DNA of 64,000 bases from a virus. Both the position numbers and the translations under genes were made by a program. The stretch lies in IMG/VR virus record IMGVR_UViG_3300025073_000026; one strand, given 5' to 3'. Of the stretch, positions 12,236 to 26,892 are shown in pieces. How positions within the stretch are numbered: position 1 is the stretch's first letter; each line of letters starts with the position of its first letter. The notes under the pieces were generated by a model. It searched no databases, had not been told where the DNA came from, and saw only the letters and a list, made by a program, of their open reading frames with translations.

Positions 12236-12257
12236 AACACCCTCATTACGACTAATG

Positions 12258-12332
12258 CTGGGGCGGCAGGATTCGGACCTGCGAGTTGTCTGGATCAAAG
12301 CCAGATGCCGTCGTCCACTTGGCTACGCCCCA
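12258..12332 (-). tRNA. tRNA-Gln(UUG), C55 variant
   Basis: U1-A72; TCTGG-CT TTG AT-CCAGA; T-loop TCCGAAT. Confidence 0.88.
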
Positions 12333-18793: not shown

Positions 18794-19900
18794 TTATGAC
18801 TTCTTGAACTGGGACTCACTGATAGGCGATGCTTCCCGGAAGAACTTCTCGATATCGTAGACTGTGACCTTCTTGTTACCCACACGCATTACAGGGAATT
18901 TACCCCACGTCCACTCAGCGGGGTTCCCATCGTACTCAAAATGCTTGGTTTTCCCGGCTGCTGTTTTCCCCTCGTTACTACCCCCAAACGCCTTCTTCCA
19001 AGCCTTATCATAGAGTGCCATCATTTCCCGATTAGCATCCTCTACGATAGCCATCTCTTCCTTGGATATGGTCTCCCCACCTGCCTTTTCTGCCTTCTCC
19101 TCAATCGAACGCACTTTCTCATAAAACCTATGGCCCTGTATCTTGGCAGTTAGCATAGGTTTCACGTGGAGTTGAAGTTCCCCGATATGACCGTTGGAGT
19201 AGGTCACGTTGAGTAGCACGTCCCTGTATCCTGCACCTGTGGGGGAAACGAACCGATCCTTTGGCTTTCTGGCTAATTTGATCCCGGACTTCTGCAACTC
19301 CGTCACCACTCTGGCAAGATCCTTGTAGTGATCCACAGCCACACTGGACCGTACAATGTCTTTCAGGCATGACCAGTTCCCGCCACAGGAAATCTCCACC
19401 TTCTCCTTGGAACGTTCTTTGGTCTTCATCGGGCCAATGACAATAACCGTGCCTTTGATGGCTGAGTAGTCCGGTTCTGGATCCTCCTTATCAATCCTGA
19501 CCATTTTGGCCCCAAGAGCCTTGTCTAGTCCTTTGCCCCGGTCCAGCATATCCAACTGGTCTTCATGTGCTTCCTTGGCGGCAGCAAACAGTTTGTCAGC
19601 ATCGGAAACAGACTGTCTGACGTCGTCCGGTAAATCCGCATGGCCTCTGAATAGGGGTTGTACCTTAGCTGGCATCCCGTGGGGGGACGTATCATCTTTG
19701 GTAGTGCCAGACGGTTCATAGAAGTCCCGCACGACCTTTTTGGTGGCAGGATGTTCTTTCTTGTACGCCTCAAAGAGGCTTTTAGCACCTTCTTCAGTAG
19801 GCGACTTGTCAGCAGCCATCCTAAGTAACGGCACAAGATATCGCCGGAGAGCGGGATCAAGGTGGGCTAGTTTGATGATGGACTTACGTAGAGTGGGCAT
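18794..19900 (-). CDS. RelA/SpoT nucleotidyltransferase-domain protein with shared N-terminal leader
   Basis: PMKTKERSKEK, LKDIVRSSV, KDRF, GYRDVLLNV, GELQLH; start MPTLRK after GGAGGT. Confidence 0.75.
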   Translation of the reverse strand: MPTLRKSIIKLAHLDPALRRYLVPLLRMAADKSPTEEGAKSLFEAYKKEHPATKKVVRDFYEPSGTTKDDTSPHGMPAKVQPLFRGHADLPDDVRQSVSDADKLFAAAKEAHEDQLDMLDRGKGLDKALGAKMVRIDKEDPEPDYSAIKGTVIVIGPMKTKERSKEKVEISCGGNWSCLKDIVRSSVAVDHYKDLARVVTELQKSGIKLARKPKDRFVSPTGAGYRDVLLNVTYSNGHIGELQLHVKPMLTAKIQGHRFYEKVRSIEEKAEKAGGETISKEEMAIVEDANREMMALYDKAWKKAFGGSNEGKTAAGKTKHFEYDGNPAEWTWGKFPVMRVGNKKVTVYDIEKFFREASPISESQFKKS

Positions 19901-19961
19901 GTGGTGATCTACCTCCATGAACGTCACACTCTAGTAGGCAAGATACGGAAACTATGCAACA

Positions 19962-20037: not shown

Positions 20038-20060
20038 ATATTGAAACCAAACAACAAAAG

Positions 20061-20143
20061 TGGGGGCGATTGGATTTGAACCAACACACCTTGCGGCACA
20101 GGTACCTTAAACCTGCGTGTCTACCAGATTCCACCACGCCCCC
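20061..20143 (-). tRNA. tRNA-Leu(AAG)
   Basis: Leu-type D arm; CAGGT-TT AAG GT-ACCTG with G37; long variable arm; A73. Confidence 0.85.
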
Positions 20144-22477: not shown

Positions 22478-22518
22478 ATACTACTCTACTGCCCTATAGA
22501 GGTAACAGGAGAAAACGG

Positions 22519-22593
22519 TCGGGGTGATTGGATCCTCGAACCAGCGACACCGAAACCCCAATCTCGTGGGCTACCTGGCTGCCCTACATCCCG
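22519..22593 (-). pseudogene. degenerate tRNA-Pro(GGG)
   Basis: tRNA-like arms, but 6-nt anticodon loop, 9-nt T-loop and mismatches in the acceptor and T stems. Confidence 0.65.
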
Positions 22594-24132: not shown

Positions 24133-24457
24133 CGGGTGTGGGAGGAATTGAACCTCCAACCTACGGATTACCCGTGCCCCCAAGTTTCCTTGGGACGTGG
24201 ACTATCTCATCATCCTAATCTGCTAGGATGCCGGGGGCTGACGGGGCTTATTGCTTTGGCTCTGCTCATCCCCTAGTCTCTGCACCTTCCAACCTACACA
24301 CTAAAACCAATTCGGTTGGTTCGGCTCAGGGTCACCATGCCCACCCGTAGAGGTGGGTTTAGGCTTCCTTGAATTCTCCCGGTTTGTCATGCTGGGTTAC
24401 CCCAACAAGCTGCATTTTCCTACAGTCCGTTGCCCTAACCAATTGGGCCACACACCC
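24133..24457 (-). tRNA. tRNA-Asn(GUU) split by a group I intron (exons 24422-24457 and 24133-24170)
   Basis: Spliced loop ACGGA-CT GT|T AA-TCCGT; G73. Confidence 0.85.
24171..24421 (-). mobile_element. group I intron (251 nt, no ORF), IC3-like
   Basis: P AATTCAAGGAAGC, Q GACCCTGAGCC, R GTGCAGAGACTAG, S GAGATAGTCC; P1 exon CUGU pairs with IGS GCAG (U.G at the splice site); terminal omegaG. Confidence 0.88.
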
Positions 24458-24707: not shown

Positions 24708-24719
24708 AAACTATCCAAC

Positions 24720-24812
24720 ACGGAGGCCATGGGGGTGGTCTCTACACAGACCGTCACTTTGGGGTAGGTGTGTAGCCTTTTCCCAAAATTCAGACCCCCA
24801 TGGACTCTCCGT
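24720..24812 (-). ncRNA. novel structured RNA: three-way junction with kissing loops
   Basis: Outer stems ACGGAG/CTCCGT and CCATGGGGGT/ACCCCCATGG; two inner hairpins with complementary loops CTACAC and GTGTAG; strand inferred from the flanking tRNAs. Confidence 0.6.
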
Positions 24813-25226: not shown

Positions 25227-25303
25227 TGGAGGCGTCACCCGGATTTGAACCGGGGCAATGCCGAATTTGCAGTCCGGTGCTTTACCACCTTAGCTATGAC
25301 GCC
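25227..25303 (-). tRNA. tRNA-Cys(GCA)
   Basis: CCGGA-CT GCA AA-TTCGG; U73 and encoded CCA. Confidence 0.92.
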
Positions 25304-25320
25304 ACATGCTTCAATCTCGG

Positions 25321-25462
25321 CCGGGGGACTGGGACTTGAACCCAGAATTTGCTTGTGTGTTTAGCCCGATTAGGAACCTTTGCAGGCTCCCGAGTGAGCA
25401 AACAGGTTGCTTTTTAGATAGCTCCAAAAGGCTATTGCGTCTACCAGTTCCGCCATCCCCGA
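25321..25462 (-). ncRNA. tRNA-like RNA with 8-nt anticodon loop and about 70-nt branched variable arm
   Basis: Leu-type D arm GGCGGAACTGGTAGACGC; ATAGC-CTTTTGGA-GCTAT; canonical T arm CTGGG-TTCAAGT-CCCAG; insert contains GTTTGCT/AGCAAAT and a GGAGCCT-GCAA-AGGTTCC hairpin. Confidence 0.75.
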
Positions 25463-25485
25463 GAACACAAACCATCAACAAACAG

Positions 25486-25558
25486 TGGAGCTAACCCGGA
25501 TCGAACGGGCAACCTCAGGCTTGCAAAGCCCGCGCTCTCCCAATTGAGCTATAGCCCC
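25486..25558 (-). tRNA. tRNA-Ala(UGC)
   Basis: G3:U70; CGGGC-TT TGC AA-GCCTG. Confidence 0.92.
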
Positions 25559-26631: not shown

Positions 26632-26892
26632 CTACACATCATACAAACCCCTACCTGGCAGATCAAACATCTGAATCATGCTCTCTGGCACCTTCAGGTG
26701 CTTGAGAGCATATTTCCGACCTTCTCCCCCAAGAGTATGGAAATCCATGAGCAGGTTAGTGGTACCAAAAGTACCGGGTAGGCTGACAACGAGCCTGACT
26801 TTGTCTGTGTCACTCTTTCCATAGTGGAATATCTCGATTGCTTTGACCTTAATCTCTATCTTGAATCTCATCTTAGCCGTTTTGGTAGCCAC
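26632..26892 (-). CDS. hypothetical protein
   Basis: GGAGG RBS; overlaps the coaD end. Confidence 0.55.
   Translation of the reverse strand: MATKTAKMRFKIEIKVKAIEIFHYGKSDTDKVRLVVSLPGTFGTTNLLMDFHTLGGEGRKYALKHLKVPESMIQMFDLPGRGLYDV

What the first reader, a model, noticed from the sequence alone, without database searches (positions are those of the whole stretch)
25321..25462. 142-nt tRNA-like RNA with 8-nt anticodon loop and giant branched variable arm
The D arm and T arm are textbook Leu-type, and the anticodon stem is perfect, but the loop is CUUUUGGA (8 nt). About 70 nt replace the variable arm, forming a GTTTGCT/AGCAAAT stem around a GNRA-capped hairpin. The acceptor stem has a one-base asymmetry and G73. 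The insert is structured, which argues against simple decay. Possibilities are a quadruplet or frameshift-suppressor tRNA, a decoy for anticodon nucleases or synthetases, or a tRNA with a non-canonical removable insert.
Basis: partly seen in the sequence, partly recalled or inferred. Interest (0 to 1): 0.75.

Follow-up and report, generated by a model that had tools for sequence, protein, structure and literature searches.

The report
Oversized glutamine-like tRNA look-alike in phage
A large uncultured phage carries, inside its tRNA gene cluster, a 142-base gene with the body of a leucine tRNA, glutamine-like ends, a faulty anticodon loop and a 72-base folded insert; it is most likely a non-decoding tRNA look-alike of the kind long annotated in phage T5 (function unknown), not a four-base-codon reader.

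Summary
Real: minus strand, 25462-25321, between tRNA-Ala and tRNA-Cys in a ~30-tRNA phage array; identical in three assemblies; missed by ARAGORN and Rfam. The Leu-type D arm, T arm, 5-bp stem with 8-nt loop, G73 and acceptor defect are confirmed. The architecture (tRNA-Leu top half, long unrelated middle) is shared by >200 viral/prophage sequences and by T5 RNA1, annotated 'tRNA-like stable RNA with unknown functions'. This scan has found that class many times on other DNA. Particular here: G73 plus a CU-U-UUG-GA loop match phage tRNA-Gln(UUG) genes on a Leu-type body, and a related Asn-type design with a long arm shows a covarying anticodon stem. So this looks like a Leu-body tRNA-Gln whose arm expanded and whose loop and acceptor each slipped by a base. 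No orthologue was found, so selection on this copy is unproven and decay stays possible (~28%). Quadruplet decoding is unlikely: CAA-A is not avoided, and a normal tRNA-Gln(UUG) lies in the window.

The parts
25321..25462 (-). tRNA look-alike gene, position 1 to discriminator G73 (142 nt)
   Evidence: identical in L119-L121; missed by ARAGORN and Rfam
25456..25462 (-). acceptor stem 5' strand UCGGGGA (the mature 5' end may be C at 25461, which puts U at -1 as in most tRNAs of the array)
   Evidence: sequence
25437..25455 (-). U8 G9 and Leu-type D arm (3-bp GCG/CGC stem; A14, A15, G18, G19)
   Evidence: sequence; D stem probability 0.75 unconstrained
25418..25435 (-). anticodon-like arm: AUAGC/GCUAU with 8-nt loop CUUUUGGA (25430-25423); the 3'-stacked triplet is UUG (Gln), with one extra U
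   Evidence: chance 5e-4; compared with Leu-body tRNA-Gln genes
25412..25429 (-). competing hairpin UUUUGGA/UCUAAAA that would bury the anticodon-like loop
   Evidence: probability 0.96, but not beyond chance
25346..25417 (-). 72-nt insert in place of the variable arm; ends in U48, able to pair with A15
   Evidence: z -3.8; no similarity to 227 other middles or to the rest of the window
25359..25403 (-). main hairpin of the insert: GUUUGCUCA/CGGGCUAAAC, 4x4 internal loop, GCAA-capped stem (25390-25373)
   Evidence: pair probabilities about 0.9-1.0
25329..25345 (-). T arm, 5 bp, loop UUCAAGU
   Evidence: probability 0.9
25319..25328 (-). acceptor 3' strand UCCCCCG, G73 (25321), encoded CC (25320-25319); the terminal A is not encoded
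   Evidence: sequence; C74 follows the discriminator in nearly all tRNAs of the array
25485..25558 (-). upstream neighbour tRNA-Ala(UGC), 22-nt U-rich spacer
25227..25303 (-). downstream neighbour tRNA-Cys(GCA), 17 nt after G73
12257..12332 (-). ordinary class I tRNA-Gln(UUG) with U1-A72 and G73, outside the array; makes the element redundant as a CAA reader

Best explanation
A non-decoding tRNA look-alike that works like phage T5 RNA1. SHOWN: it sits head-to-tail between two tRNA genes, keeps every nucleotide of the tRNA elbow (U8-A14, A15-U48, G18-U55, G19-C56, U54-A58) and a closable acceptor with CC, and carries a folded 72-nt domain. INFERRED: it is transcribed with the array, cut out by the host's tRNA-processing enzymes because the elbow and acceptor look normal, given its terminal A, and kept as a stable RNA of about 145 nt. 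INFERRED: LeuRS does not charge it (G73 is an antideterminant), Gln charging is poor (8-nt loop, no U1-A72 pair, bulged acceptor), and it does not decode. Origin, about 60:40: a tRNA-Gln(UUG) on a Leu-type body whose variable arm grew and whose loop and acceptor each slipped by one base, versus an ordinary anticodon-less Leu shell whose cargo starts with a chance hairpin. Likeliest job (weakly supported): bait for host proteins that bind or cut tRNAs, with a U-rich loop holding both UUU and UUG; alternatively a stabilising carrier for the insert.
For: About 96 of 117 viral hits to a D-arm plus T-arm pattern also have a paired acceptor that the pattern did not ask for; 172 unrelated middle types, U48 in 163. 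T5 RNA1 (144 nt) has this build and is annotated 'tRNA-like stable RNA with unknown functions'; T4 RNAC/RNAD are expressed late (PMC9697503). Leu-body tRNA-Gln(UUG) genes with G73 exist in phages: L233, L472, L488, L485, L491. A Leu-body, G73-CCA, Asn(GUU)-loop family with a 35-44-nt arm has a covarying anticodon stem, 39 of 40 cells paired, so this design is under selection elsewhere. The middle is better folded than 96% of class middles (z -3.1). A73 is needed by LeuRS and G73 blocks it (PMC2377443, PMC9976931). The phage carries other translation- and nucleotide-conflict genes (Thg1, Apyc1-like, ADP-ribosylglycohydrolase).
Against: No orthologue in viral, metagenome, phage, plasmid or clade-neighbour searches, so no covariation for this copy. 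It is the only one of 172 types with both G73 and an imperfect acceptor, as a decaying gene would be. Expression and end-processing were not tested. The decoy role rests on inference only.
Confidence: 0.5

Rival explanations
1. A decaying pseudogene: a spare Leu-body tRNA-Gln(UUG), or an old shell, that took an insertion and two homopolymer slips and is now carried along in the transcript with no role.
For: Both defects are one-base changes in runs (U run in the loop, G run in the acceptor). A normal tRNA-Gln(UUG) exists at 12257. The array holds another damaged gene, the tRNA-Pro(GGG)-like one at 22517-22593. No orthologue anywhere.
Against: D arm, T arm, all elbow nucleotides and the 5-bp stem are intact; the insert is strongly folded and has no source in the window. 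No close relative of the phage is held (best neighbour homologues 45-55%), so the missing orthologue says little.
Confidence: 0.28
2. A working giant-arm tRNA-Gln that reads CAA as a triplet, the extra U being absorbed on the 5' side of the loop, as in yeast mitochondrial tRNA-Thr(UAG) with its 8-nt loop.
For: G73, G10, G2-C71 and G3-C70 (in the slipped register) and a 3'-stacked UUG match the bacterial Gln identity set (PMC9976931); Leu-body Gln tRNAs exist; an 8-nt loop can decode triplets (PMC7609411).
Against: All five Leu-body Gln genes keep a 7-nt loop, U1-A72 or A1-U72 and an arm of 7-16 nt; this one keeps none of the three. A37 and U38 are absent. The acceptor bulge lies where EF-Tu and synthetases bind (own knowledge). 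The insert has no helix next to the T stem.
Confidence: 0.1
3. A tRNA with a removable insert (non-canonical intron) that is cut out and re-ligated, perhaps by the phage's own RNA ligase.
For: The phage has a group I intron in tRNA-Asn and an RNA-ligase-like frame with a KLDG motif near 600-950 (family not scanned). A 6-nt direct repeat AAGCAA flanks most of the insert.
Against: No Rfam intron match even at E 10; 72 nt is too short for self-splicing; deleting between the repeats leaves a 14-nt arm that cannot form a hairpin; the 8-nt loop and acceptor defect would remain.
Confidence: 0.05
4. A natural quadruplet or +1 frameshift suppressor reading CAAA (or AAAA).
For: Perfect 5-bp stem with an 8-nt loop, C32, U33 and G37.
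Against: CAA followed by A is used at the expected rate in 65 window ORFs (46 against 47.5, p 0.87); AAA-A is lower (O/E 0.67) but inside the range of all NNA-A contexts, 0.56-1.09. Known suppressors are otherwise normal tRNAs (own knowledge). None of the 23 true long shells in a complete scan for a Y-U...R-A loop has a 5-bp stem. Charging is doubtful.
Confidence: 0.04

Closest known systems
Phage T5 RNA1 (and RNA2), AY543070, 'tRNA-like stable RNA with unknown functions'
   Same: Size (144 against 142 nt), place inside a tRNA array, Leu-type D arm, T arm, closing acceptor, long structured middle (80 against 91 nt), no Rfam family.
   Different: No sequence similarity in the middle; T5 RNA1 has no anticodon-like arm and no G73.
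Phage T4 species 1 and 2 RNAs (rnaC, rnaD)
   Same: Stable 120-140-nt RNAs of unknown function in the tRNA cluster; rnaC ends in a T arm and a tRNA-like 3' end.
   Different: Neither has the Leu-type D arm or an anticodon-like arm.
Phage tRNA-Gln(UUG) on a Leu-type (class II) body (L233, L472, L488, L485, L491; not found described in the papers searched)
   Same: Same D arm type, CU-UUG-RA loop motif (G37 as in L233), G73, G-rich acceptor.
   Different: Those have 7-nt loops, U1-A72 or A1-U72, a 7-16-nt variable region, and ARAGORN calls them; this one has an 8-nt loop, a 72-nt arm and an acceptor defect.
Canonical bacterial class II tRNA-Leu (Rfam RF00005)
   Same: D arm, T loop and elbow contacts.
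   Different: G73 instead of A73, no Leu anticodon, 8-nt loop, 72-nt arm; below the Rfam threshold.
Yeast mitochondrial tRNA-Thr(UAG); +1 frameshift suppressor tRNAs
   Same: 8-nt anticodon loop.
   Different: Those have otherwise normal bodies and are charged.

Membership tests
T5 RNA1-type tRNA-like RNA (Leu shell with long middle) | Leu-type D arm and T arm with elbow nucleotides, U48 | tested here: met
   the search pattern was taken from this D arm, so only acceptor pairing and U48 in the hits are independent evidence
T5 RNA1-type tRNA-like RNA (Leu shell with long middle) | acceptor stem closes the molecule | tested here: met
   6 of 7 pairs; 158 of 172 types have 7 of 7
T5 RNA1-type tRNA-like RNA (Leu shell with long middle) | structured middle of 45 nt or more, unrelated between types | tested here: met
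   91 nt, z -3.1; best alignment score 27 against 25.6 +/- 2.5 for shuffles
T5 RNA1-type tRNA-like RNA (Leu shell with long middle) | no anticodon arm | tested here: inconclusive
   an anticodon-like arm is present (chance 5e-4) but is not the favoured fold
T5 RNA1-type tRNA-like RNA (Leu shell with long middle) | A73, as in most of the class | tested here: not met
   G73, as in 18 of 172 types; T5 RNA1 also lacks A73, so this is typical rather than defining
T5 RNA1-type tRNA-like RNA (Leu shell with long middle) | accumulates as a stable processed RNA | not testable with these tools
Canonical tRNA-Leu (RF00005) | A73, 7-nt loop with Leu anticodon, 13-17-nt arm, Rfam or ARAGORN call | tested here: not met
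Leu-body tRNA-Gln(UUG) of phages | Leu-type D arm, G10, G73, UUG in a C-U...R-A loop on a 5-bp stem | tested here: met
   (UUG as the 3'-stacked triplet)
Leu-body tRNA-Gln(UUG) of phages | 7-nt loop, U1-A72 or A1-U72, short variable arm | tested here: not met
   8-nt loop, U1.G72 or C1-G72, 72-nt arm
+1 frameshift suppressor tRNA | 8-nt anticodon loop | tested here: met
+1 frameshift suppressor tRNA | otherwise normal, chargeable body; footprint in codon context | tested here: not met
   acceptor defect and 72-nt arm; CAA-A O/E 0.97
+1 frameshift suppressor tRNA | aminoacylation and four-base translocation | not testable with these tools
   needs bench work
tRNA-Sec, selC* tRNA, allo-tRNA | 8/5, 8/4 or 9/3 acceptor/T branch | tested here: not met
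   7/5 (or 6+bulge/5) branch; definitions in PMC7609411
Group I intron-containing tRNA; tmRNA; YrlA | Rfam match over the element | tested here: not met
   no match at E 10 over 25321-25462, while the intron at 24178-24432 is found

The most novel reading that the evidence does not exclude
The gene is a caught intermediate between working Leu-body tRNA-Gln genes and the anticodon-less shells: a still chargeable or decoding tRNA with a 72-nt arm, or a selected bait that shows a Gln/Lys-type U-rich loop to anticodon nucleases. It would show how phages turn tRNAs into non-coding carriers, and that the ribosome or synthetases tolerate far larger natural arms than known.
Probability: 0.15. Interest if true: 0.75.

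Novelty: new variant of a known kind. Interest (0 to 1): 0.4.

Why it matters
T4 and T5 have carried tRNA-like stable RNAs of unknown function in their annotations for decades. The class turns out to be large and invisible to ARAGORN and Rfam. This copy still shows the marks of a specific parent tRNA, so it suggests a route (class II remodelling, then arm expansion, then loss of decoding) and gives a concrete test of whether such RNAs are bait for tRNA-targeting defences. On its own it is a single copy with two defects, so it is a weaker test object than the conserved families, such as the Asn-type one found here.

Tried and rejected
Sequencing or homopolymer error: rejected, three assemblies are identical. 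Orthologue searches gave nothing: DNA patterns in viral contigs, metagenomes, BLAST of phages and plasmids, the neighbour gene, clade relatives through the RelA/SpoT-like gene (only L453 had a tRNA array, and no shell). A selected 'anti-anticodon lock' was rejected as unproven (40% of shuffled inserts do as well). An insert inside the anticodon loop (5' UAGCC pairing with distal GGCUA) was rejected: the remaining 16 nt form no variable-arm hairpin, unlike the 7 true cases. Likeness of the insert to a c-di-GMP riboswitch or to group I P4-P5 was noted by eye and not supported by Rfam. T4 rnaC as closest relative: only the T arm and 3' end are shared. My first count of C55 tRNAs (12) included three false matches and was corrected to 9 by inspection. 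The calibration script stopped after 22 tRNAs.

Full report
Setting. The window is part of a large uncultured phage: endolysin, a major-head-protein fragment, Thg1, an ADP-ribosylglycohydrolase and an Apyc1-like gene match PHROGs or Pfam, and contigs carrying the neighbouring gene reach 140 kb. ARAGORN finds 31 tRNA genes, all on the minus strand, most between 17.3 and 28.3 kb. The element is on the minus strand between tRNA-Ala(UGC) and tRNA-Cys(GCA), with spacers of about 20 nt like those between the other genes. ARAGORN and Rfam miss it, even at E 10. It has no promoter of its own. The nearest upstream copy of the phage's repeated TGTTAG promoter-like motif (7 copies against 0.8 expected) is at 31163-31135, and the one sigma-70-like match at 26666 is not above chance. 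Co-transcription with the array is therefore inferred.

Observation. The coordinates run exactly from position 1 to G73. D arm, T arm, the 5-bp stem with its 8-nt loop, G73, the following CC and the one-base acceptor defect are all there. Three assemblies are identical over the element. The insert is 72 nt and well folded (z -3.8, 0 of 200 shuffles). The anticodon-like hairpin has probability 0.02 against 0.96 for a competing hairpin that buries the loop. Real tRNAs of the window mostly score high in a similar test (21 of 22 at 0.28 or more, Tyr 0.01), but shuffled inserts suppress this weak stem just as often (40%). Folding therefore says the arm is weak, not that it is absent or deliberately locked.

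The class. About 96 of the 117 loci also had a paired acceptor stem, which the pattern did not require. Pooling scans gave 215 long shells in 172 unrelated middle types: 158 with a perfect acceptor, 163 with U48, 132 with A73 and 18 with G73. In bacterial genomes many hits are tandem or attachment-site duplications, but true shells occur too. What is kept is the top half of the L shape, which points to selection on RNA shape (inference). The middle of this element resembles none of the others. Earlier notes of this scan describe the same class on other DNA many times and named T5 and T4 RNAs as leads, which I checked. T5 RNA1 (144 nt), annotated 'tRNA-like stable RNA with unknown functions', has the same build and is picked up by my shell finder; Rfam misses it too. 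T4 rnaC shares only a T arm and 3' end. It is expressed late and has no known function (PMC9697503; PMC12685909).

What is particular here. Most shells have no anticodon arm: a hairpin at position 27 occurs in 3 of 131 types against 1.5% by chance, and none of 23 true shells in a complete scan for a Y-U...R-A loop has a 5-bp stem. Here the hairpin with C32, U33 and a purine at 37 has a shuffle chance of 5e-4. That figure is post hoc, since the element was picked for this feature. Two further features agree with it, however: G73, and UUG as the 3'-stacked triplet, both Gln marks (PMC9976931). Phages do carry tRNA-Gln(UUG) genes on this same Leu-type D arm with G73, three of them with a class II arm. 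A scan for G73-CC shells found a family with a Leu-type D arm, U1-A72, G73-CCA, an Asn-type GUU loop and a 35-44-nt hairpin arm. Its anticodon stem keeps 39 of 40 cells paired through two to four pair types per position. So 'Leu body, G73, real anticodon arm, oversized variable arm' is a design under selection elsewhere, and I put a Gln ancestry for this element at about 60%. Compared with the working-looking Gln genes it has an extra U in the loop, lacks U1-A72 and has a one-base acceptor defect. It is the only type with both G73 and an imperfect acceptor.

How it likely works. Shown: position, elbow nucleotides, closable acceptor, folded insert. Inferred: it is processed out of the array transcript like a tRNA and persists as an RNA of about 145 nt. 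LeuRS needs A73 and the elbow but not the anticodon arm (PMC2377443), and G73 is an antideterminant, so unlike A73 shells this one should not be leucylated. SerRS needs a variable-arm helix by the T stem, and 12 unpaired nucleotides are predicted there. Gln charging is doubtful for the reasons above. The phage has normal tRNA-Gln(UUG), tRNA-Gln(CUG), both tRNA-Lys and five tRNA-Leu genes, so it needs no decoding from this gene. A quadruplet reader should leave a footprint, and CAA-A is used at the expected rate. I therefore commit to a non-decoding look-alike (0.5), most plausibly bait for tRNA-binding or tRNA-cutting host defences; anticodon attack and phage tRNA provisioning are reviewed in PMC7824862, but the bait role itself is my inference. 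Decay is the main rival (0.28): both defects are homopolymer slips, the array holds another damaged tRNA gene, and no orthologue was found. The phage has no close relative in the collections, so conservation could not be tested either way.

Verdict. A real gene, and a new variant of a known but unexplained kind (T5 RNA1-type tRNA-like RNAs), already met repeatedly by this scan. Its interest lies in the apparent Gln parentage, which links remodelled class II tRNAs to the anticodon-less shells. Interest 0.4.

Noticed in passing
L190:3436-3548(-), L563, L564, L567, L571, L574, L576, L577, L580: Conserved viral family: Leu-type D arm, U1-A72, G73-CCA, Asn-type GUU loop with U37 and a 35-44-nt hairpin arm; the anticodon stem covaries; ARAGORN misses the six members run through it. 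A better test object than the element itself.
   Followed up: partly
L233:3187-3272, L472:1166-1254, L488:4918-5003, L485, L491: Phage tRNA-Gln(UUG) genes on a Leu-type body, three with a class II arm; L488 has one next to an ordinary tRNA-Gln(UUG).
   Followed up: partly
L002:2870, L074:3273, L097, L209, L271, L282, L446:1415: tRNA-Leu genes with an insert inside the anticodon loop; in L002, L074 and L446 the insert looks like a nested tRNA-like unit ending in ACC before the AAAA of the loop.
   Followed up: no
window 2648, 12257, 18629, 19963, 20253, 21617, 23585, 24892, 28273: Nine of about 31 tRNA genes have C instead of U at position 55 of the T loop (no pseudouridine 55 possible).
   Followed up: no
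window 22517-22593 (-): Damaged tRNA-Pro(GGG)-like gene: mispaired anticodon arm and 9-nt T loop; ARAGORN gives no anticodon.
   Followed up: no
window 20060-20143 (-): tRNA-Leu with anticodon AAG (A34), rare in bacteria; the phage has five Leu genes.
   Followed up: no
window 24178-24432 (-): Group I intron (Rfam RF00028, 71 bits) inside a tRNA-Asn gene of the same array.
   Followed up: partly
window 24718-24812 (-): Another non-tRNA RNA placed like a tRNA: three-way junction, z -4.7, no Rfam match; T5 has similar unexplained RNAs (RNAI, III, IV).
   Followed up: partly
window 3826, 18513, 21491, 24101, 31135, 53005, 63497: Repeated promoter-like motif TGTTAG-N17/18-TAGTRT, 7 copies against 0.8 expected.
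   Followed up: no
L322, L335, L337, L344, L351, L356, L401, L411: In Flavobacteriaceae a 5' half of tRNA-Leu(CAA) is repeated just upstream of the full gene, across genera.
   Followed up: no
L347, L419, L404, L108: One shell middle type recurs across distant hosts with conserved blocks and apparent compensatory changes.
   Followed up: no
L453:15858-18246: Array of a clade relative with a long-armed tRNA-Pro(UGG), a tRNA-Gly(ACC) and a gene that ARAGORN reads with a four-base anticodon (CATG).
   Followed up: no
window 18794-19927 (-): RelA/SpoT-like gene inside the tRNA array; 53 hits, most from large contigs or without a name, a few with PF04607.
   Followed up: partly
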